Part shown: one piece after another, positions 54,674-64,000 of the stretch
Layout: every line of letters begins with the position of its first letter
Position numbering within the stretch: the stretch's first letter is position 1
Origin: Gammaproteobacteria bacterium
GTDB taxonomy: Bacteria > Pseudomonadota > Gammaproteobacteria > CAKMZV01
Direction: 5' to 3'
Assembly (NCBI GenBank): GCA_965277625.1
Contig: OZ255827.1
Coordinates: forward strand, 1,717,057-1,781,056
DNA length: 64,000 nucleotides
Translations under genes and position numbers: made by a program
The notes under the pieces: generated by a model
The model's input: the letters and a program-made list of their open reading frames with translations, nothing else
What the model was told of the DNA's origin: nothing
The model's database searches: none

Positions 54674-55804
54674 TTACAGAGGGCCTTTTAAGGCCAAAGC
54701 CACATCTTGCCAGCTGTTTACTCGGTAATCCATATCATCTTTGTGCGGATCATATTCTCTTGCATGGTCCATGGCGGACTTCATACTAATCACATCATTA
54801 GGTTGATAATAAAAAGTGTTATTTCTATGGGTCTTTAGAAACTCTGGCGTGATAATTGGAATCCGACAATAACAAAATTGCATCACTTTAAGCGTGTCCG
54901 TGAAGGTCTCAGCGCCCTGAGACCATGCTCGACAATTGAGCCCTGCGTCTGCATGTTGAACGTAAGGAATGGTGGTTTCAAAAGGCACCTCACCATACAT
55001 GGTCACATTTTCTTTGTCGATCATGTCTATGGGGCCGAGGTAATGGAAATGCCAATCAGGACATTGATCTGGGGCTTGGCGCAGAAAATCATAATCAATG
55101 TCACCCACGCCCACAAAAACGGCATTTTTTTGTTTTGACTTGGGATAAGGGGATGGATTTTTTTGATCAAACAAAGCCTTCTCAATACCATGATAATCGA
55201 GTGAAACCGAAGCTTCAGTGTTTAGAGCTTGTAATTTCTTTTGTAGCGCCGCATTGGTGCAACTGACAAAATCAAAATCTTGCATGTGATCCTGTTGAAA
55301 TGCTTTAGTATCGGAATGTACCCTAAGCACATCCAAATCATCTGAAACGCGATAAACATAGCGTGCGCTTTGATTCACTTGTTTAAACTGAGGCATGAGT
55401 TCCAATGATGGCGTGCTTTCAAAAATAATCAAATCGGCTGATTTTACAAAGTCCGTGCTTTCACCCAATATCAATTGCTGAGTACGCATCACTGGGGCAA
55501 ATAACAATCGCGTTAGTTGCCCCAACCATTTTTGCTTGAACGCTTTGGTTAGATCAACTTTGTGCCATTGGGTATAGTGCACATACGAAAAAAAATTGGG
55601 TTTTTTTTCGATCAATTGATGCTTTTCATCTAACAACCCATACTGTAGTCGGTTGTCTTTGTTAAGACGAGAAATTAGGCTGACTGGCGATGTGAAAAAT
55701 AATACTTGCCAGCCCATTTGATGAAAAGCGTTGGCCACCCAAAAAAAACCAGTACGTCTTTTTTGATCAAAATAATGGGGCGTGATCAGTACAACCTTTT
55801 TCAT
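54674..55804 (-). CDS. Hypothetical protein, possible GT-B-fold glycosyltransferase
   Basis: 376 aa. The call rests on the N-terminal MKKVVLITPHYFDQKRRTGFFWVANAFHQMGWQVLFFT (Rossmann-like GT-B start) and the position in the polysaccharide locus. I could not assign a family by eye. Confidence 0.35.
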   Translation of the reverse strand: MKKVVLITPHYFDQKRRTGFFWVANAFHQMGWQVLFFTSPVSLISRLNKDNRLQYGLLDEKHQLIEKKPNFFSYVHYTQWHKVDLTKAFKQKWLGQLTRLLFAPVMRTQQLILGESTDFVKSADLIIFESTPSLELMPQFKQVNQSARYVYRVSDDLDVLRVHSDTKAFQQDHMQDFDFVSCTNAALQKKLQALNTEASVSLDYHGIEKALFDQKNPSPYPKSKQKNAVFVGVGDIDYDFLRQAPDQCPDWHFHYLGPIDMIDKENVTMYGEVPFETTIPYVQHADAGLNCRAWSQGAETFTDTLKVMQFCYCRIPIITPEFLKTHRNNTFYYQPNDVISMKSAMDHAREYDPHKDDMDYRVNSWQDVALALKGPL

Positions 55805-55814
55805 GACGAACCCT

Positions 55815-56927
55815 TCATCTTCTAACAGCTTTTGCTAAGGCGCGCAAAAATTTTGAAGCCTGAGGGTATTTGTGAACATCAGTGACCATGCCTTCAGGAT
55901 TAAAGGCAAATTTTTTGGCCGTTTCAGGGGGATAGAAATATTTATCTTGGCAAGCTTTTACATAAAATTCTTCAAAACTGTCGGCCATTTTAGCCACCGT
56001 TAGAGTTGATTGGTAAGCGTGTTTTGACATCTCTATGCGTTCTTCTTCGCTTTTTGAAAAATGCTGTTTTAACTGACTTAATGCCTCAGAATAAGTTGAA
56101 GCCACATAACCATTTTCACCATCTGTGATGAATTCAGCCATAAAACCATTGGGTGAAACAATGGCAGGTGTGCCACTCGCCATGGATTCGTGTATTGCAT
56201 TGGCACAAGGTTCTATCCAATTTACAATGTAAAAAAGGAGCGCTGATTCTCTGAGCAATTTCGCTTTAATCTCGCCGTCAATCATTCCGCAAGGATGTAC
56301 GAATTTATTAAACTTTTGTGGGCTTAATAAAATATCAGGCGTCCAAGCTTTTGGCGATTTGAGCAGGTCACCCCCTGCGAGTTTAAGCGTGATTTGCCCA
56401 TCGATTGCCAGACTGATGGCCGATGAAGCATTTTTCGCCCACCAGTTCAGTAGCGCCAAATAAAGCATTTGTGGTTTTTTGTCTTCCGAATACTGATAAG
56501 CGGTTCGGTCCACCCCCCCATAAACATACATGCTTTGTTGCGCACCGTGGGCTTTTGCATGGAGACTGCTAACAAACAAGGTGTTTGGACAATATTCTAC
56601 GCCTGCTTTACCATTACAACCTTCGGTGAATAAATACGGCTTGGTCGGTAATTTCGCCGTTGCTGAAAGATGGTTGGGGTGGCGAAAAAAATGAACCACA
56701 TCAATGAAATCTGGAATGACGTCATCAATACTTTCATGGGATTCTGGCGGGCGAATCCATTTGATTTTTGGATTTTCTTTAAAAATGAGACTATCACGAT
56801 GAACCATCAAAAAAACATCATGGTCACGAGATGACAGTTCATTGGCCAACCAATACATTTTTCTTTGCGTGCCGCCATAGCCATTAGGTGGCACAAAGGT
56901 ATCTTTATAAATTAAAAGTATTTTCAT
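55815..56927 (-). CDS. Glycosyltransferase, GT4/group 1 type
   Basis: Track ORF 55815..56996. ATG 56927 (MKILLIYKD...GGTQRK) overlaps the upstream stop (ATGA). The C-terminal EX7E-type region is EPCANAIHESMASGTPAIVSPNGFMAEFITDGENGYV. Confidence 0.75.
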   Translation of the reverse strand: MKILLIYKDTFVPPNGYGGTQRKMYWLANELSSRDHDVFLMVHRDSLIFKENPKIKWIRPPESHESIDDVIPDFIDVVHFFRHPNHLSATAKLPTKPYLFTEGCNGKAGVEYCPNTLFVSSLHAKAHGAQQSMYVYGGVDRTAYQYSEDKKPQMLYLALLNWWAKNASSAISLAIDGQITLKLAGGDLLKSPKAWTPDILLSPQKFNKFVHPCGMIDGEIKAKLLRESALLFYIVNWIEPCANAIHESMASGTPAIVSPNGFMAEFITDGENGYVASTYSEALSQLKQHFSKSEEERIEMSKHAYQSTLTVAKMADSFEEFYVKACQDKYFYPPETAKKFAFNPEGMVTDVHKYPQASKFLRALAKAVRR

Positions 56928-57907
56928 GCGACTTGTTTGATTTTTGATGGATCGATTTTCGATAAATCCACCCATGAGCCCATTTGTTGATCCCATTTAA
57001 AAGGTGTAATAATATCGAAGCCACCGCCTTGATAAAAGGTTAACTCACCAAAATAAATGCGATTCTCAATCGAGTACAGATCAACGCGTACATATACGAA
57101 AGGCGCTGAGAGTTTCCTCGCAATCTCTAACAGGGCATCTAAATTTTGGGGTTTTTCTTTTGACTCAGTTGAATTGATTGAATCACCGTATTGTGTTCTT
57201 TTGGCCTTTGAGGCCCACACTACAGGCAGGTGGTTCCAATCACAATCATATATATCACGTTTGCTGTCACCTTCTCTATCAGAAGTGACATAAATAATTT
57301 TTGGTTCACCGTGAAAACAATGGAACTTGTAATCATTAGGTAATGTCCCATTTTTATTCAACAGCAATTTTTCAACCACTATGCCCGGTTTAAGGTTTTT
57401 ATAAGGCCATTCCTTGGTTTTAGTATAATAATTACGATTAAGCCACTTTTGCATTTCTTTATATTTTTCCAACCAATTGACGGTCAATTTATCCCTGACA
57501 ATAAAATAAGAGCCACTGTCATGACTGGCTTTTATGATGACGGGCGCCTCTGGCAAACACGCCTGATTGATGGAATGAGGGTTGTCTGTGTAATGCAATA
57601 ATTCAATTAAATATGAATCCCCAATCGTTTTACTAACATAAGATCTGGCTTCATACTTATCCGCACAAATCGCATACAAAGGATCACGCACATGGATCTT
57701 CATCCATTGAATTTTTTCATTTAACGTCCCAACTTTTTTAAAGTTTAAAGCATAACCGTGTGCTCTTTTAAATTGAAGGTTTATCAGCACCTTTGTAGGC
57801 AGGCAATGGAATAGGAAAAAAAAATACAGGGCTTTAAAAGGCGCGCCAATCGTTTGGAGTATGGGATGAGCATAATATATTTTTTTCAAAATAAAATGAA
57901 CTTGCAT
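56924..57907 (-). CDS. TupA-like ATP-grasp protein (candidate uronate:amine amidoligase)
   Basis: Track ORF 56924..57943; ATG 57907 lies 2 nt after the HAD gene stop. Blocks matching the ATPgrasp_TupA pattern: LNEKIQWMKIHVRDPLYAICADKYEARSYV, IKASHDSGS, DYKFHCFHGEPKII, YDCDW and YVRVDLY...IYFGELTFYQGGG. Confidence 0.75.
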   Translation of the reverse strand: MQVHFILKKIYYAHPILQTIGAPFKALYFFFLFHCLPTKVLINLQFKRAHGYALNFKKVGTLNEKIQWMKIHVRDPLYAICADKYEARSYVSKTIGDSYLIELLHYTDNPHSINQACLPEAPVIIKASHDSGSYFIVRDKLTVNWLEKYKEMQKWLNRNYYTKTKEWPYKNLKPGIVVEKLLLNKNGTLPNDYKFHCFHGEPKIIYVTSDREGDSKRDIYDCDWNHLPVVWASKAKRTQYGDSINSTESKEKPQNLDALLEIARKLSAPFVYVRVDLYSIENRIYFGELTFYQGGGFDIITPFKWDQQMGSWVDLSKIDPSKIKQVA

Positions 57908-57909
57908 AC

Positions 57910-58572
57910 TTACCACCAGATCGGTTGATGCTTGTCTATCCAAGCGGGCAATGATTTATGACTTTTTTTGTTCAAAACAACAAACGTCTGATCGGCTAAA
58001 TTGAACAGAGGCAGGTCACTGACACTGTCTGAGTAAACGACTATTTGAGATCGATCATAGGATTCAATGTCTATTGTTTTTTGTAAGAAGGTGATTTTTT
58101 CTTCACCAATACAATCTACTGTTTCAAATGCACCCTGACATATATCCTTTTTATAGGCTAAGTTTGTACAGACCAATTCAATATCAAATTGATTAGTGAA
58201 AAATTGTAAATAATCATAATACCCTGCTGAAACTATGATGACCCGATCGGCTTTTGCTAAATGTTCTTTAAGGTAAACCATCGTATCTGAAATTAAATTG
58301 GGGCAGATTTGCTCATCATGAAATTGCTGCGAAACCTGTCTGATTTCTGCTCTTGTGAAACCTGACAATGTTTTCAATTTAATGCTTTTCCCATAACTTT
58401 TTTTAATGCCCAGAATTTTGAACATTAAAAAATCAACGACCCTTGCATAAAAGTTAAAGAGAAGCCAGCGAGTGTGGCATTTTTTTTGGCCAAAGTACTT
58501 AACAAATGCATCAGCCGATTGAAATGATACGAGCGTTTCACAAAAATCAAACAACACCAAATTTTTCATCAT
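57910..58572 (-). CDS. HAD-IB-like hydrolase (candidate phosphatase) with variant motif I
   Basis: Track ORF 57910..58593. ATG 58572 overlaps the upstream TAA by 1 nt. Motif I reads LFDFCETL (DxCxT rather than DxDxT). It also has IIVSAGY and motif IV VYSDSVSDLPLF. Confidence 0.65.
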   Translation of the reverse strand: MMKNLVLFDFCETLVSFQSADAFVKYFGQKKCHTRWLLFNFYARVVDFLMFKILGIKKSYGKSIKLKTLSGFTRAEIRQVSQQFHDEQICPNLISDTMVYLKEHLAKADRVIIVSAGYYDYLQFFTNQFDIELVCTNLAYKKDICQGAFETVDCIGEEKITFLQKTIDIESYDRSQIVVYSDSVSDLPLFNLADQTFVVLNKKSHKSLPAWIDKHQPIWW

Positions 58573-59651
58573 TATTTGGGGAAATAATAGCAACTCAAAG
58601 TTGCTTCTAATTGTTCCATTTTTTTCATCGTACCTAAGGTGATGCGGACGAAATCCGAAAAGCCTTCAATGTGCTTAAAATCCCTAATAAAAACGTTTTG
58701 GGCGTTTAAAAGCGTGATCAATTGATCTTTATTGCCTTGAATAACTTTAATGAATACAAAATTGCCATGTCCAGCATAAATTTGCAGTTTGTCTTTATAC
58801 TTACCTTGGATGCACTTGATTAAAAAACTTTTTGATTGATCGATCTTTTCAACGTATTCATTCATGTAATCGATGTCTTTCAACGCTGCTAATGCCGCTA
58901 CTTGAGCCGGCATACTGACGCTCTTCGCGTTTCGCACTAAATTGATTTTTTTAATGTTCTCACTGTCTGATAAAACATATCCCATACGAAGTGATGCAAG
59001 ACCGAATGCTTTTGAAAATGTCCTGGTAATGATTAGATTTTTATATTTTTTAATAAGCTCTGACGCACTGTTCTTGCCAAATTCATAATATGCCTCATCA
59101 ACAAGATAATGACAGTGGGGGGTTGCTTTTAATAGCATTTCGATGTCCTTGACAGAAACCATCATACCTGTGGGATTGTTCGGATTACAAAGATACACCA
59201 TCGACGCTTTAACCGAATGTACTCGGTCAATTAAAGATTGTATATTAAGGTTTTCCCACGGTTCACTAACGTTAAAAAAGTCTATTTTCAAATCATTGCT
59301 CTCGACCACAATACGAAAATTGTCATACGTTGGTCCGACCATAATAACCGCATCACCACTTTGGCACATGACCTTGACTATATACTCATGGGCACCATCT
59401 GATCCGTTAAAATATTGTACGCATTGAACATTAATCGAAGCATAGATTGATAACTGTTTTAACAGTTCATCATTATTCGCATCAGGGTACCAATTCAGCG
59501 GATAATGACTAATAAAATCAATCAAACTTTCTTTGACTCGGGGTGAAGGGCTAATGTCCGATTCATTCCAATCAAGTTTTGCAACACTCGACTTATCTTG
59601 AATTTCCCATGCCTTGTGTGAAGTAAGAGAGTAGGGTTTAAATGGATTCAT
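58572..59651 (-). CDS. Class I/II PLP-dependent enzyme of the HisC/CobD family (aminotransferase or phospho-amino-acid decarboxylase)
   Basis: 359 aa with LCNPNNPTG and the PLP-lysine region RTFSKAFGLASLRMGY. It sits inside the sugar locus, not next to the his genes. Confidence 0.75.
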   Translation of the reverse strand: MNPFKPYSLTSHKAWEIQDKSSVAKLDWNESDISPSPRVKESLIDFISHYPLNWYPDANNDELLKQLSIYASINVQCVQYFNGSDGAHEYIVKVMCQSGDAVIMVGPTYDNFRIVVESNDLKIDFFNVSEPWENLNIQSLIDRVHSVKASMVYLCNPNNPTGMMVSVKDIEMLLKATPHCHYLVDEAYYEFGKNSASELIKKYKNLIITRTFSKAFGLASLRMGYVLSDSENIKKINLVRNAKSVSMPAQVAALAALKDIDYMNEYVEKIDQSKSFLIKCIQGKYKDKLQIYAGHGNFVFIKVIQGNKDQLITLLNAQNVFIRDFKHIEGFSDFVRITLGTMKKMEQLEATLSCYYFPK

Positions 59652-59877
59652 AACACAATCTACTTATTATTTGAATTTCTGGTTGATTAAACAGTCATTG
59701 ATGATCAAATATTTTCATCCACAACTAACGAGGGCATCACAAGCGTCCAATCTACCCGTTTTTCGGTCGTAACAAAGCCGTGCATTATAAATGGAGAAAT
59801 ACTGTCAGATAAACTTTCTATTCGGGTGTTTTTAAATAACGGCCAATGTACATAAAATCAGGTGTCATGGTATCTAT

Positions 59878-60912
59878 TCAATGCTCTAAATTTATACCAT
59901 AATAGCGACAATACCAATGAACAAACTGCTCGATGCCATAGTCTATGGACGTTGATGGTCTGTAGCCAACTGCATTTTCTAAGGCCGAACAATCAGCGCT
60001 GGTTGCATGTACATCGCCTTTTTGCATGGGCAAGAGGTTGCGGATGGCAATTTTACCGACTTTCTCCTCTATTGTTTTAATATAAACATCTAACTTAACT
60101 GGGTTGTTATTCCCAATATTATAAATTCTAAAAGGCGCGTTACTGCTAGAGGGGTCCGGATTGTTGCTGTCCCAATCAGCATTGGGTTGGGCAGGCTGAT
60201 TGCTGGCTCTTATAACGCCCTCTGTGATATCATCGATATAGGTGAAATCTCTTAGGTGATCACCATTATTGAACACATCAATCGGCTTTTCTTCTATGAT
60301 GTTTTTGGTGAACTTAAATAAGGCCATATCCGGTCGACCCCAAGGCCCGTAAACTGTGAAAAATCTCAATCCTGTTGTCGGCAAAGCATAGAGATGGCTG
60401 TAACTGTGCGCCATCACTTCATTAGATATTTTGGATGCCGCATAGAGTTGCAGGGGGTGGTTAACACTATGGTGTTCACTAAACGGCATGGTCGTGTTTG
60501 CGCCATACACACTGCTTGAGCTCGCATAAGTTAAATGGGCAATGCCATTTTGACGACAAGCCTCTAAGACATTCAAAAAACCAACAACGTTACTTTCAAT
60601 GTACGAACGGGGATTTATTAGAGAGTATCGCACGCCTGCTTGAGCGGCCAAGTGGATAACTTTTTTAATTTTATGTTCAGCAAAACATCGATCAACCGCT
60701 GCATGATCGGCAAGATTTGATTGGTCGAAGAAAAACGCTTTTTGGTGTTTTTGCGCAAATTCGGATAAATCTTTGATACGATCTTGTTTGAGTTTTACAT
60801 CGTAGTAATCATTCAAAACATCCAAACCGACAACCGTTTCACCTCTCTCTAATAATTGTTTGGCAACATGATAGCCAATAAAGCCTGCAGCGCCTGTCAC
60901 TAAGATGGTCAT
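59878..60912 (-). CDS. NAD-dependent nucleotide-sugar epimerase, UDP-glucuronate 4-epimerase-like
   Basis: 344 aa with [25 protein letters not shown] and the YAASK catalytic motif. It is adjacent to ugd. Confidence 0.75.
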
Positions 60913-60975: not shown

Positions 60976-62142
60976 TCAACTTTCACCAAATAAATCTCGA
61001 GTATAGACTTTATCCATAACATCTTTGATTTCATCAGAAAGGCGATTACAAATAATCACATCTGATTGTTTTTTAAAATCATCCAATGATGTGATCACTT
61101 TGGAATTGAAAAATTCGCTTTCTTGCAAAGTGGGTTCATACACAATTACCTCTATGCCTTTGGCTTTAATGCGTTTCATAATGCCTTGAATGGCAGATGC
61201 GCGGAAATTATCAGAATTTTGTTTCATCACCAAACGGTAAATGCCAACCTTTTGGGGATTTCTCTTCAGAATTTGATCCGCAATGAATTGCTTACGAGTT
61301 TGGTTCGCTGCAACAATGGCATCGATGAGGTTATTGGGAACATCGCTATAATTTGCCATCAGTTGTTTGGTATCCTTTGGCAAACAATAGCCACCGTATC
61401 CAAAAGATGGATTATTGTAGCCTGCACCTATGCGCGAATCTAAGCAAACCCCCTTAATGATTTCACGTGTTTTCAAATCATGGACTTCACAAAAACTATC
61501 TAACTCATTGAAATATGCGACGCGCATGGCAAGATAGGTATTAGAAAACAGCTTAATCGCTTCTGCTTCTGTTGAATCGGTATATAAAATGTCAATGTCT
61601 TTTTTTATGGCACCTTGCACCAGTAATTGTGCAAATTGCTCAGCGCGTTCAGATTTTTCTCCAATGATGATTCTCGAAGGGTATAAATTATCTTGCAAAG
61701 CATGCCCTTCTCGCAAAAACTCGGGTGAGAAAATAATATTTTCACTGTTAAACTGCGCCCTGACTTTTCGTACATAGCCCACAGGAACCGTTGATTTTAT
61801 GACAATCACTGCTTTGGGATTGATTGCCTGAGTGGCTTGAATGGTGGTTTCAATGGATTGGGTATTAAAATAATTCTCGACAGGGTCATAATCTGTTGGC
61901 GTAGCAATGACCACAAAAGTAGCGCCAGTCAATGCCTCTACAGAGTCTAAGGTGGCTTTGAAGGTCAAAGATTTTTCCTTTAAAAATCGTTCAACTTCTG
62001 CATCAACAATTGGACTTTCGCCGCGATTCAGCTGGTCTATTTTCTCAGGGTCAATATCAAGGGCCACAACTTCATTATGCTGAGCCAATATCATCGACAT
62101 GGACAATCCGACATAGCCCGTCCCAACCACTGCTATTTTCAT
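60976..62142 (-). CDS. ugd: UDP-glucose 6-dehydrogenase
   Basis: 388 aa with [23 protein letters not shown] and the catalytic-Cys region [11 protein letters not shown]. Confidence 0.9.
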
Positions 62143-62173: not shown

Positions 62174-63055
62174 TCAACGATTTACCCACTGTTTATAAGC
62201 CTTGCCAAGCTCTTTATGTTGACAAGCGAAATGGTGACTTGCTTTTAAAAAACCAAGGCGATTACCACAATCATGAACGTCATTTAACGCGCCCCAGCCG
62301 TTTAGACCTTCTTCTCGGCAAAGGCCTTTTAAAGCATCTGTCAATTGAAACTCACCATGTTTATCTTGGCGCACAGTCTGCAAATAATCAAATATGCTCG
62401 CTGGCAACACATAACGCCCGCTTAATGCCCAATTTGATGGCGCTGCTTTTTGAGTAGGTTTTTCAACCACAGTCTTAATTTTATCGCTCATACCTGGTTT
62501 AAATGCCGCCCCTCCGAGATCGGCAATGCCATAATTTTGAACTTCATTATCGGGCACATGTTGGAGCATCACCTGTCCTGTTTGGTTTTTTTCAAAAGCG
62601 GTAATCATCTTTCGCAAATCTTCACCTGTTTGGTCCGCCATAATCACATCGGGCAAAATAACTGCGACATTCGATTGGTGAACGATCGGAGCCGCTTGTA
62701 ATACAGCATGCCCTAAACCCAAAGGTTCATTTTGTAGGACAGTGACAAATTGAACATCTCGGGGGGTGGTTTGTTCTAAACGATTTAACAGGTCATTTTT
62801 GCCTTCTCTGAGCAACTCATTTGACAACTCAGTCATGGGTGAAAAATGCCGTTCAATTCGACCTTGCTTTACTGGATTATCAACAAAAATTATTTGTTTT
62901 ATGCCCGCACAGATGATTTCTTCAACCACATATTGAACCAAGGGTTTATCCACCAATACCAGCAATTCTTTGGGGACAACTTTCGTTGCAGGCAAGAGCC
63001 TTGACCCCAGTCCAGCAACAGGGATGATGGCGATATTTACAGACTGTTGATCCAT
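62174..63055 (-). CDS. galU: UTP--glucose-1-phosphate uridylyltransferase
   Basis: 293 aa with [30 protein letters not shown] and VEKP blocks. Confidence 0.9.
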
Positions 63056-63194: not shown

Positions 63195-64000
63195 TCATGC
63201 CCCTGTGGCCTGAATTAAATTTTTCCAACGTAGGAACGATGCAATGCGCCATTTCATGTCCGTTGTAAGCTGATCTTTGGTTTTGTGGAAGGCGTTTTCG
63301 TCGATAAATGGAATCTCTTTGATATCCTCAAACATTTTTTCATACCAAATATTCAGCTCGGTATTCCACTGCGGTGGTGTGTGAAAACCATTTTTATCTT
63401 TTCTATCCATCACGATTTGTGGAATGACCCCCTGACCTAAAGCTTTTAACATATGCTTGGGTTCAGCATTTTCAACCAGATATGCCTCTGGTAGAGACAG
63501 AGCATATTCAACCAGTGGTGTCGTTAGGAATGGGACCCGACTTTCAATGGATGAACGCATTGAAGCTCGGTCAGAATATCTCAGAAGCCAAATCAATTTT
63601 TGACTTGGCAACTCAGATGCCATTCTGTTTTTAAGCGCATTTTTTCCTTGAAATTGCTGGGGATAAAGCCATTCAATTTTAATATCCAATGTTTTGAGCG
63701 CATCCTGATTGATAAATTTGGGTGTGACAGATTTTTTCATCCATTGCCGACCCATTCTCCAGATACTTGGAGGTGTTTTACTTAGAAAATATTGCATTAA
63801 ACGCAACACAACGTCTTTACTCGATCTACCCGCATATTGCCCAGATGCTTGCAGAAATTTAAAAGCGCTGATTAACTTGCCTTGTTTGAGTAAGCTGAGC
63901 AATCGATACTCAGGGTAGCCCCAGTAACCTGCCCAGCTTTCATCGGCGCCTTGACCTTCTAAAAGCACGGTAATGCCTTGTTTTTTGGCTTCTTTAAAAA
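63195..64000 (-). CDS. Asparagine synthase (glutamine-hydrolysing) family amidotransferase, C-terminal part; 5' end outside the window
   Basis: Track ORF 63195..63968 starts at an internal GTG. The frame stays open to 64000 (...AKKQGITVLLEGQGADE, the synthetase-domain motif). Only the C-terminal portion is visible. Confidence 0.7.
   Translation of the reverse strand, partial: FKEAKKQGITVLLEGQGADESWAGYWGYPEYRLLSLLKQGKLISAFKFLQASGQYAGRSSKDVVLRLMQYFLSKTPPSIWRMGRQWMKKSVTPKFINQDALKTLDIKIEWLYPQQFQGKNALKNRMASELPSQKLIWLLRYSDRASMRSSIESRVPFLTTPLVEYALSLPEAYLVENAEPKHMLKALGQGVIPQIVMDRKDKNGFHTPPQWNTELNIWYEKMFEDIKEIPFIDENAFHKTKDQLTTDMKWRIASFLRWKNLIQATGA

What the first reader, a model, noticed from the sequence alone, without database searches (positions are those of the whole stretch)
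56924..59651. ATP-grasp, HAD phosphatase and HisC-family PLP enzyme cassette predicts an amino-alcohol-amidated uronic acid in the surface polysaccharide
Seen in sequence: three tightly packed genes (2-nt gap, 1-nt overlap, and an ATGA overlap into the next glycosyltransferase) encode a TupA-like ATP-grasp, a HAD-IB-like hydrolase and a HisC/CobD-family PLP enzyme. Immediately upstream are a UDP-glucuronate-4-epimerase-like gene, ugd and galU, which supply UDP-GlcA/GalA. Established knowledge (from memory of the biochemical work on the Campylobacter jejuni HS:2 capsule): HisC-like PLP enzymes (Cj1437 transaminase, Cj1436 decarboxylase) make serinol phosphate or ethanolamine phosphate. The ATP-grasp C-terminal domain of Cj1438 ligates that amine to the carboxylate of glucuronate. 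The HAD phosphatase Cj1435 then removes the phosphate, giving a glucuronamide. Inference: this locus encodes the same three-step logic as free-standing genes in an unrelated organism. It should decorate GlcA or GalA with ethanolamine, serinol or a related amino alcohol. The single PLP enzyme leaves the identity of the amine open.
Basis: partly seen in the sequence, partly recalled or inferred. Interest (0 to 1): 0.6.

Follow-up and report, generated by a model that had tools for sequence, protein, structure and literature searches.

The report
Amino-alcohol amide cassette for acidic sugars
Three tightly packed genes in an uncultured marine gammaproteobacterium are a horizontally acquired copy of a widespread module that most likely caps a surface uronic acid with a small amino alcohol (probably serinol), as shown biochemically in Campylobacter jejuni, so this is a new carrier of a known pathway.

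Summary
Three minus-strand genes at 59651-56924 encode a HisC-family PLP enzyme, a HAD-IB hydrolase and a TupA-like ATP-grasp ligase. The junctions are as described. They lie behind galU, ugd and a UDP-glucuronate 4-epimerase.

The reading is supported in kind:
- The same PLP-HAD-ligase trio recurs in at least 12 of 79 unrelated loci.
- The ligases that sit in such trios form one clade.
- The trio PLP enzymes form a clade apart from true HisC and CobD.
- PLP-HAD fusions exist.

The histidine-pathway alternative fails. The genome has two better HisC genes and a better histidinol-phosphatase candidate elsewhere, and a sister species lacks the cassette.

New context: the cassette, with the epimerase and a GT4, is a low-G+C five-gene insert. 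It splits a galU-ugd-GumK-like glucuronosyltransferase operon that is contiguous in that sister species.

Two points stay open. I could not obtain the Cj1435-Cj1438 sequences, so direct similarity rests on a Campylobacter stand-in. The amine is undetermined (serinol favoured over ethanolamine).

An unexplained detail: this HAD subfamily carries Cys where HAD phosphatases have their acid/base Asp.

The scan has found this module before on other DNA (E. coli O143, Bacteroidota). Verdict: new member of a known kind, modest interest.

The parts
58572..59651 (-). HisC-family PLP enzyme (359 aa), predicted maker of the amino-alcohol phosphate (serinol phosphate favoured)
   Evidence: PF00155 3e-49. 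TIGR01141 hisC 255.4 bits, below its 276.55 cut-off; CobD model 154.8, below 290.55. The alignment to E. coli HisC 1fg3 keeps the PLP lysine (SKAF), DEAY, NPNNPTG and both C-terminal arginines (IRD, VRITLG). It lies in the clade of cassette PLP enzymes, apart from the genome's own HisC copies and from CobD.
57910..58572 (-). HAD-IB hydrolase (220 aa), predicted phosphatase acting on the phosphorylated amide; motif I is D-F-C-E-T
   Evidence: PF12710 2.3e-20; TIGR01490 104.7 bits, above its 98.3 cut-off. Its start shares one base with the PLP stop. Cys at Asp+2 is conserved in all 11 cassette HADs and in at least 138 of the 150 best cluster representatives.
56924..57907 (-). TupA-like ATP-grasp amidoligase (327 aa)
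   Evidence: PF14305 4.8e-48. The AlphaFold model has pLDDT 93.6, and its PDB matches are all ATP-grasp ligases: Ddl, PsnB, LysX/ArgX. It is 35% identical to the TupA domain of a Campylobacter sp. capsule glycosyltransferase, E 1e-35. It lies in the clade of ligases that sit next to PLP+HAD.
55815..56927 (-). GT4 glycosyltransferase (370 aa from the ATG at 56927), coupled to the ligase by an ATGA overlap; part of the insert
   Evidence: PF00534 1.8e-10; overlap seen. Not found in the 20-kb stretch fetched around the sister species G002's galU-ugd-gumK-like operon.
59878..60912 (-). UDP-glucuronate 4-epimerase-type SDR (344 aa), first gene of the insert
   Evidence: PF01370 9.6e-57. PDB relatives: 5u4q at 1e-126, B. 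cereus UDP-GlcA 4-epimerase 6zl6 at 1.6e-39, and MoeE5. Missing between ugd and gumK-like in G002.
60976..62142 (-). UDP-glucose 6-dehydrogenase (ugd)
   Evidence: Three UDPG_MGDP_dh domains; 66% identical copy in the G002 operon.
62174..63055 (-). UTP-glucose-1-phosphate uridylyltransferase (galU)
   Evidence: PF00483 3.3e-31; 58% identical copy in the G002 operon.
54674..55804 (-). GumK-like (GT70) glucuronosyltransferase, last gene of the operon
   Evidence: PF22059 GumK_N 9.8e-40. Full-length match to Xanthomonas GumK 2hy7, 5e-19. Found in all four family genomes searched at 49-99% identity.
63195..64000 (-). C-terminal part of an AsnB-like glutamine amidotransferase at the head of the gene row (continues beyond the window)
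   Evidence: PF00733 1.8e-28. The N-terminal GATase_7 and Asn_synthase parts lie in L010. It is a 634-aa gene in the 97% relative.

Best explanation
The three genes are a self-contained decoration module for an acidic sugar.

(1) The HisC-family PLP enzyme makes a phosphorylated amino alcohol. The most likely route is (S)-serinol phosphate from dihydroxyacetone phosphate plus glutamate. Less likely is ethanolamine phosphate from phosphoserine.

(2) The TupA-like ATP-grasp ligase uses ATP to join that amine, as an amide, to the C6 carboxylate of a glucuronic or galacturonic acid residue. That residue has already been transferred to the growing glycan by the neighbouring GumK-like or GT4 transferase.

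(3) The HAD-IB enzyme removes the phosphate, leaving a neutral uronamide.

The module arrived by horizontal transfer together with a UDP-GlcA 4-epimerase and a GT4. It was inserted into an older galU-ugd-glucuronosyltransferase operon.

Shown here: gene content, family membership, fold, module co-inheritance, the insertion, and the existence of separate histidine-pathway genes. Inferred: every catalytic step, the amine, and the acceptor.
For: Family and fold. The junctions imply co-translation.

Module co-inheritance:
- tblastn of the three proteins on 79 loci carrying TupA-like ligases finds PLP, HAD and ligase adjacent in 11 loci. Ten have the same order; L042 has another order. A twelfth, L016, is cut at the contig end. 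They come from Bacteroidota, Elusimicrobiota and Melainabacteria.
- The 13 trio-linked ligases, window included, are one side of a single branch among 81 ligases (1 change; 0 of 500 label shuffles as low).
- The trio PLP enzymes form one clade (SH-aLRT 97) apart from this genome's two HisC copies and from CobD.
- PLP and HAD are fused in L067. A 630-aa protein, P0319, carries the HAD at 415-622.
- Searched from the HAD side, the nearest relatives again sit beside Aminotran_1_2, and in L120 also beside a TupA gene.

Uronate context: the ugd, epimerase and GumK-like genes flank the cassette. Many other TupA loci carry ugd or the epimerase within 10 kb.

Published biochemistry of the model system: PMC11800397, PMC11800379, PMC13276843.

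Insertion and transfer:
- G002 (same genus) has galU-ugd-gumK-like contiguous and no cassette. Only 2 of 41 related genomes carry the ligase.
- The cassette is 36.5% G+C against 42.9% for the window.
- The closest ligase homologues outside the genus are about 45% identical, and those that carry a name are Bacteroidota.
Against: No direct comparison with Cj1435, Cj1436, Cj1437 or Cj1438 was possible.

The HAD lacks the canonical Asp+2 acid/base residue (D-x-C-x-T), so its phosphatase chemistry is not guaranteed.

The window's PLP enzyme is only 37-40% identical to the other cassette PLP enzymes and is their deepest branch. Its substrate could therefore differ.

No flippase, polymerase or export genes lie in this gene row, so the acceptor is unknown.

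One TupA-like protein (CfmP of Klebsiella) is reported to act on a fimbrial protein rather than a polysaccharide (PMC13419641).
Confidence: 0.72

Rival explanations
1. Same module and same ligation logic, but the PLP enzyme is a decarboxylase (Cj1436- or CobD-like). The amide would then carry ethanolamine (from phosphoserine) or 1-aminopropan-2-ol (from phosphothreonine) rather than serinol.
For: Sequence alone cannot separate the transaminase from the decarboxylase in this fold. C. jejuni uses both routes (PMC11800397). The CobD model still scores 154.8 bits.
Against: The enzyme scores far better on the HisC model than on the CobD model (255 v 155 bits). Its best solved relatives are all histidinol-phosphate aminotransferases (1e-34 to 1e-29), while the CobD-type decarboxylases score 5e-15 to 1e-9. 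In the tree, CobD sits on a very long separate branch. It keeps the HisC N-terminal P-Y arm, which the aligned CobDs lack.
Confidence: 0.18
2. The PLP enzyme and the HAD are spare histidine-pathway enzymes (histidinol-phosphate aminotransferase and histidinol phosphatase). They would have been placed here because hisB-H-A-F-E lie about 4 kb downstream of the operon's last gene, and the ligase would be unrelated to them.
For: hisBHAFE lie at 50890-47729 (annotation of the 97% relative). The HisC model is the best NCBIfam hit. The HAD gives weak hits to two HAD-IB histidinol-phosphatase models. hisB here is IGPD only.
Against: The genome has two HisC genes above the model's cut-off (352 and 351 bits). 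It also has a HAD-IB gene scoring 220 bits on the histidinol-phosphatase model, found in all five family genomes, whereas the cassette HAD scores 53. The cassette is missing from the sister species G002 and from 39 of 41 relatives. PLP and HAD are co-inherited with the ligase across phyla, inside polysaccharide loci. An unrelated three-gene unit separates the operon from the his genes (note e1-4550647).
Confidence: 0.04
3. The ligase amidates something other than a uronic acid in a glycan: another carboxylate (Kdo, a pyruvyl or lactyl group) or a protein side chain.
For: A TupA-like protein (CfmP) acts independently of surface polysaccharides (PMC13419641). Several trio loci have no ugd within 10 kb. 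No polymerase or flippase lies in this operon.
Against: Here the cassette was inserted, together with a UDP-GlcA 4-epimerase, between ugd and a glucuronosyltransferase. The Alistipes trio has the same epimerase (56% identical) and ugd just upstream. The characterised members act on GlcA.
Confidence: 0.06

Closest known systems
Campylobacter jejuni HS:2 and HS:19 capsule glucuronamide pathway: Cj1437 (DHAP to (S)-serinol-P), Cj1436 (Ser-P to ethanolamine-P), Cj1438 C-terminal TupA-like ATP-grasp amidoligase, Cj1435 / HS19.09 HAD phosphatase
   Same: The same three enzyme classes, next to a ugd gene and glycosyltransferases. The ligase belongs to the same Pfam family that the authors assign to Cj1438C. 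It is 35% identical to the TupA domain of a Campylobacter sp. capsule enzyme. The expected order of events is: sugar added, amidated, dephosphorylated, then extended.
   Different: The ligase is free-standing, not fused to a GT2. There is one PLP enzyme, not two. There is no kps-type capsule export locus. The host is an uncultured marine gammaproteobacterium with a 2.1-Mb genome. A UDP-GlcA 4-epimerase is present, so the acid may be GalA.
PLP-HAD-TupA trios in Bacteroidota, Elusimicrobiota and Melainabacteria polysaccharide loci (L012, L015, L019, L022, L032, L040, L042, L045, L067)
   Same: Homologous genes (PLP 37-40%, HAD 25-37%, ligase 38-48% identity) in the same order in ten loci. Shared signatures: P-Y-x-x-x-S-H-K-x-W and Y-D-N-F-R in the PLP enzyme, and D-F-C-x-T in the HAD.
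   Different: Those trios sit in ordinary Wzx/Wzy-type capsule loci with a flippase and an initiating transferase. This one sits in a short operon without them. The window's three proteins are the most divergent members of each clade.
E. coli O143 / Shigella boydii type 8 O-antigen three-gene module
   Same: According to that note, it has the same three enzyme classes at the head of an O-antigen cluster whose sugar chain is known to carry a serinol amide.
   Different: Not tested here. I could not obtain those sequences, and the E. coli O-antigen review I read (PMC7685785) does not discuss these genes.
TupA / WemR-type stand-alone ATP-grasp amidoligases of O-antigen and teichuronopeptide loci (PF14305)
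   Same: Same family and fold, and often next to ugd and the uronate epimerase.
   Different: Most of them (66 of the 79 sampled loci) have no PLP or HAD partner. They are thought to add amino acids (PMC13419641). The trio-linked ligases are a separate clade.
Histidinol-phosphate aminotransferase HisC and HAD-IB histidinol phosphatase
   Same: Same folds. The PLP lysine and both phosphate- or carboxylate-binding arginines are kept.
   Different: Both score below the equivalog cut-offs. Separate, better copies exist in the genome. The cassette proteins are a distinct clade, and the HAD has a different motif I.

Membership tests
TupA-like ATP-grasp amidoligases (Pfam PF14305) | Profile match above the gathering score over the whole domain | tested here: met
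   164.2 bits against a cut-off of 25, covering profile positions 1-238 of 241.
TupA-like ATP-grasp amidoligases (Pfam PF14305) | ATP-grasp fold | tested here: met
   The model has pLDDT 93.6. The listed Foldseek PDB matches are nearly all ATP-grasp ligases or carboxylases (plus the ATP-grasp C domain of synapsin), with E down to 1e-6 but only moderate TM (0.32-0.41).
TupA-like ATP-grasp amidoligases (Pfam PF14305) | Residues invariant across close homologues are present | tested here: met
   29 invariant columns in 31 sequences (for example K126, K140, E166, R274, D276, E288), all present in the window protein. Their roles were not assigned.
C. jejuni-type uronamide module (Cj1435-Cj1438) | Significant similarity of the ligase to the Cj1438 C-terminal domain | tested here: inconclusive
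   The Cj1438 sequence could not be obtained. The stand-in P0152 (a Campylobacter sp. GT2-TupA fusion lying after ugd, a GT2 gene and glf) gives 35% identity over 85% of the query, E 1e-35. The literature calls Cj1438C a TupA-like ATP-grasp.
C. jejuni-type uronamide module (Cj1435-Cj1438) | HisC/CobD-fold PLP enzyme, HAD hydrolase and ligase encoded together and inherited together | tested here: met
   Adjacent and overlapping here. The trio recurs in 12 of 79 loci. The trio ligases and the trio PLP enzymes are each one clade. PLP-HAD fusions exist.
C. jejuni-type uronamide module (Cj1435-Cj1438) | UDP-glucuronate supply and a uronosyl transferase in the same locus | tested here: met
   galU, ugd, the epimerase and the GumK-like GT70 lie in one gene row.
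C. jejuni-type uronamide module (Cj1435-Cj1438) | HAD phosphatase with the catalytic motif I D-x-D-x-T | tested here: inconclusive
   The nucleophile Asp is present, but Asp+2 is Cys (D-F-C-E-T). Motifs II-IV are kept. Whether Cj1435 shares this is unknown to me.
C. jejuni-type uronamide module (Cj1435-Cj1438) | Catalytic activities (amine-phosphate synthesis, ATP-dependent amidation, dephosphorylation) | not testable with these tools
   Needs enzyme assays.
Histidinol-phosphate transaminase HisC (TIGR01141 equivalog) | Score above the curated cut-off | tested here: not met
   255.4 bits against 276.55. Two other genes in the genome score 352 and 351.
Threonine-phosphate decarboxylase CobD (TIGR01140 equivalog) | Score above the curated cut-off | tested here: not met
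   154.8 bits against 290.55. It is separated from true CobDs by a long branch.
HAD-IB histidinol phosphatase (NF052360) | Score near the curated cut-off and conservation with the his pathway | tested here: not met
   About 53-54 bits against a cut-off of 280. Another gene scores 220 bits and is present in all five family genomes.

The most novel reading that the evidence does not exclude
The decorated sugar is not part of a capsule or O-antigen. It would be a glucuronic or galacturonic acid that a stand-alone GumK-like transferase, found in all the family genomes searched, puts on a core envelope molecule such as LPS core, lipid A or a glycolipid. In that case this lineage acquired a portable kit that neutralises an envelope charge with an amino alcohol. 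In addition, the HAD subfamily with Cys in place of the acid/base Asp would dephosphorylate by a mechanism not described for HAD phosphatases, and the divergent PLP enzyme might supply an amine other than serinol or ethanolamine.
Probability: 0.15. Interest if true: 0.55.

Novelty: new member of a known kind. Interest (0 to 1): 0.33.

Why it matters
It extends a pathway shown biochemically only in Campylobacter to a free-living or host-associated marine gammaproteobacterium. It also shows the pathway behaving as a mobile, co-inherited three-gene unit across several phyla.

The sister-species comparison gives a clean natural before-and-after pair (galU-ugd-GT70 with and without the insert). That pair could be used to find the acceptor and to test what amidation does to surface charge.

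The conserved Cys at the HAD acid/base position gives enzymologists a concrete question to address.

None of this changes what is known in principle.

Tried and rejected
1. Obtaining the real Cj1435-Cj1438 sequences failed by every route:
- The 'longer' and 'shorter' homologue searches returned a Campylobacter sp. fusion but not Cj1438.
- Cluster look-ups carried no names.
- P0269 turned out to lie in a non-capsule locus.
- The Campylobacter genome behind L008 is not held.
- The three original Raushel papers are not held.

2. No TupA-like protein, and no entry named as one of the Cj enzymes, is in the PDB by sequence.

3. Promoter and terminator scans gave no more sites than shuffled sequence, so no internal promoter is claimed for the 226-bp gap at 59652-59877.

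4. The ESM Atlas search with the HAD returned only generic HAD clusters.

5. The E. coli O-antigen review does not discuss the O143 genes.

6. The histidine-pathway reading was considered and rejected.

Full report
**What is there.** All genes discussed are on the minus strand. In order of transcription they are:
- an AsnB-like amidotransferase (from beyond the window to 63195)
- galU (63055-62174)
- ugd (62142-60976)
- an SDR epimerase (60912-59878)
- a 226-bp gap
- a HisC-family PLP enzyme (59651-58572)
- a HAD-IB hydrolase (58572-57910)
- a TupA-like ATP-grasp protein (57907-56924)
- a GT4 glycosyltransferase (56927-55815)
- a GumK-like glycosyltransferase (55804-54674)

The PLP stop and the HAD start share one base (TAATG). 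The HAD and the ligase are 2 nt apart. The ligase and the GT4 overlap in ATGA.

Pfam and NCBIfam confirm every assignment. The epimerase's solved relatives include the Bacillus cereus UDP-glucuronate 4-epimerase and MoeE5. The last gene matches Xanthomonas GumK, a glucuronosyltransferase, over its full length.

**The ligase.**
- It matches PF14305 at 4.8e-48.
- No member of this family has a solved structure by sequence search.
- A model built on 31 homologues is confident (pLDDT 93.6). The listed PDB matches are nearly all ATP-grasp ligases such as D-Ala-D-Ala ligase, PsnB and LysX/ArgX, though the TM-scores are moderate.
- NCBI names its homologues 'ATP-grasp fold amidoligase family protein'.
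- The C. jejuni literature describes the Cj1438 C-terminal domain (residues 453-776) as a TupA-like ATP-grasp that amidates the C6 carboxylate of GlcA with (S)-serinol phosphate or ethanolamine phosphate, after which Cj1435 removes the phosphate (PMC11800379; PMC11800397; PMC13276843).

I could not obtain the Cj1438 sequence itself. The best stand-in is a 1656-aa Campylobacter sp. RM12640 protein that carries GT2 domains and a TupA domain. Its gene follows ugd, a GT2 gene and glf, and a Capsule_synth (PF05159) gene lies about 2.4 kb downstream. From memory, that gene order mirrors the one around Cj1438. The window's ligase is 35% identical to it over 85% of its length, E 1e-35.

**The trio is a module, not a coincidence.** A scan of species-representative genomes with an alignment of ligase homologues returned 79 loci. 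tblastn with the window's proteins found PLP, HAD and ligase adjacent in L012, L013, L015, L017, L019, L022, L032, L040, L045 and L067, all in the same order. L042 has another order, and L016 is cut off at the contig end. These loci come from Flavobacteriaceae, Chitinophagaceae, Rikenellaceae, Prevotellaceae, Elusimicrobiaceae and Gastranaerophilales.
- On a tree of 81 ligases, the 13 that sit in a trio (window included) fall on one side of a single branch. That is 1 change of label, local support 90, and none of 500 shuffles is as low.
- The trio PLP enzymes form one clade (SH-aLRT 97), apart from this genome's two HisC copies and from true CobDs, which sit on a very long branch.
- In L067 the PLP and HAD domains are one 909-aa polypeptide. 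A 630-aa protein, P0319, has the HAD at 415-622.
- Starting from the HAD instead, its nearest relatives again lie next to an Aminotran_1_2 gene, and in L120 also next to a TupA gene.
- In the Alistipes locus, the trio sits in an ordinary capsule locus with a flippase, GT2 genes, a Stealth protein and an initiating transferase. It is preceded by ugd and by an epimerase 56% identical to the window's.

**The histidine alternative.** hisB, hisH, hisA, hisF and hisE lie at 50890-47729. hisB is IGPD only. The HAD weakly resembles two HAD-IB histidinol-phosphatase models. This rival needed testing, and it fails on four counts:
- The genome has two HisC genes at 352 and 351 bits, above the 276.55 cut-off. 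The cassette enzyme scores 255.
- A different HAD-IB gene (G000:C1:738880-739527) scores 220 bits on the histidinol-phosphatase model and is present in all five genomes of the family. The cassette HAD scores 53 and occurs only in G000 and G001.
- The ligase is found in 2 of 41 related genomes.

**An insertion into an older operon.** The GumK-like transferase is present in all four other genomes of the family that I searched, at 49-99% identity. In G002, a species of the same genus, galU, ugd and the GumK-like gene are contiguous with nothing between them. In G000 and G001, five genes (epimerase, PLP, HAD, ligase, GT4) lie between ugd and the GumK-like gene.

The three cassette genes have 36.5% G+C against 42.9% for the window. 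That places them among the three lowest of 246 sliding windows of the same size. The closest ligase homologues outside the genus are about 45% identical, and those that carry a name are Bacteroidota. I infer horizontal acquisition of the block.

The operon has no flippase, polymerase or exporter. In G004 the GumK-like gene stands alone. The acceptor could therefore be a core envelope molecule rather than a polymer. This is inference only.

**Which amine?**
- The PLP enzyme aligns with E. coli HisC (1fg3) almost position for position. It keeps the SKAF lysine, DEAY, NPNNPTG, P-T-Y and both C-terminal arginines, in I-R-D and V-R-I-T-L-G. In HisC, by my recollection of the published structures, those arginines hold the phosphate of histidinol phosphate. 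A small phosphorylated substrate is therefore likely.
- The enzyme is much nearer to HisC than to CobD by model score (255 v 155 bits), by solved relatives and by tree distance. It also keeps the HisC N-terminal P-Y arm, which the aligned CobDs lack.
- This favours a transaminase making serinol phosphate from DHAP, as Cj1437 does. It does not exclude a decarboxylase.
- Subfamily signatures are P-Y-x-x-x-S-H-K-x-W, L-D-W-N-E-(A/S), (T/S)-Y-D-N-F-R and R-N-(A/P)-K.
- The window's enzyme is the deepest branch of the cassette clade, at 37-40% identity.

My split within the module reading is roughly: serinol 0.6, ethanolamine or aminopropanol 0.25, other 0.15.

**An unexplained detail.** All 11 cassette HADs have motif I as F-D-F-C-(E/G/N)-T. 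That puts Cys at the Asp+2 position, which serves as general acid/base in HAD phosphatases (established knowledge of the superfamily). The genome's housekeeping HAD-IB has the canonical F-D-L-D-D-T. Motifs II, III and IV are kept.

In an exhaustive search, 473 cluster representatives match at E up to 1e-10. Of the best 150, at least 138 have D-x-C-x-T and only 2 have D-x-D-x-T. It is therefore a large, coherent subfamily. I do not know whether Cj1435 belongs to it.

**Comparison and verdict.** In kind, this is the C. jejuni HS:2/HS:19 glucuronamide logic carried by free-standing genes.

Membership in PF14305 and in the co-inherited PLP-HAD-ligase module is met. Direct similarity to the four Cj proteins is untested except through a stand-in. 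HisC, CobD and histidinol-phosphatase equivalog memberships are not met.

Earlier notes of this scan describe the same module in E. coli O143/S. boydii, in Bacteroidota and in a gut alphaproteobacterium. Those are leads, not evidence, but they show that this is not a first sighting.

I rate it a new member of a known kind, interest about 0.33. The insertion into a conserved galU-ugd-GT70 operon and the Cys-type HAD are the parts worth a follow-up.

Noticed in passing
window 57910-58572 (motif at residues 9-13); also L012, L013, L015, L019, L022, L032, L040, L042, L045, L067: The cassette HAD subfamily has Cys at the Asp+2 acid/base position of HAD motif I (D-F-C-x-T). This holds in at least 138 of the 150 best cluster representatives. 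The housekeeping HAD-IB of the same genome has D-L-D-D-T.
   Followed up: partly
window 63195-64000 and L010 2-1156: An AsnB-like glutamine amidotransferase (GATase_7 + Asn_synthase, 634 aa in the relative) heads the gene row. Such enzymes are proposed to turn uronic acids into primary amides, so the same glycan might carry a second kind of amide. It was not found in the 20 kb fetched around G002's galU-ugd-gumK-like operon.
   Followed up: no
L009 4483-6919 (the 97% relative, G001): Between ugd and the epimerase, the close relative carries an extra 581-aa carbamoyltransferase gene and a stretch 33% identical to part of the epimerase. The window lacks both, so the spot between ugd and the insert is variable.
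   Followed up: no
L099 9787-13082 (G002); L100 11712-12878 (G004): A GumK-like (GT70) glucuronosyltransferase is conserved in this family of small-genome gammaproteobacteria. It occurs as a three-gene galU-ugd-GT operon in G002 and as a lone gene in G004, with no polysaccharide export genes nearby. Its acceptor is unknown.
   Followed up: partly
L067 7188-9917: In a Gastranaerophilales genome, the PLP enzyme and the HAD are fused behind an N-terminal stretch of about 330 aa that has no Pfam match. Two methyltransferase genes and an SDR gene flank the trio.
   Followed up: partly
L120 224-4017: A metagenomic contig has an ornithine cyclodeaminase/mu-crystallin family gene directly before TupA-HAD-PLP and a flippase. 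This suggests that some versions of the module tailor the amine further.
   Followed up: no
L013 (contig labelled Bifidobacterium breve MAG): This 4.4-kb contig carries a trio whose ligase branches within the Flavobacteriaceae clade, next to L019. The contig is probably mis-binned.
   Followed up: no
window 59878-60912: The best solved relative of the epimerase (5u4q, E 1e-126) is deposited under the name dTDP-glucose 4,6-dehydratase. The next relatives are UDP-glucuronate 4-epimerases, so the deposited name may not describe its function.
   Followed up: no
G000:C1:738880-739527 (L104), outside the window: The likely housekeeping histidinol phosphatase of this genome is a HAD-IB protein scoring 220 bits on NF052360, below its 280 cut-off. 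It is found in all five family genomes searched. hisB in the window is IGPD only.
   Followed up: partly
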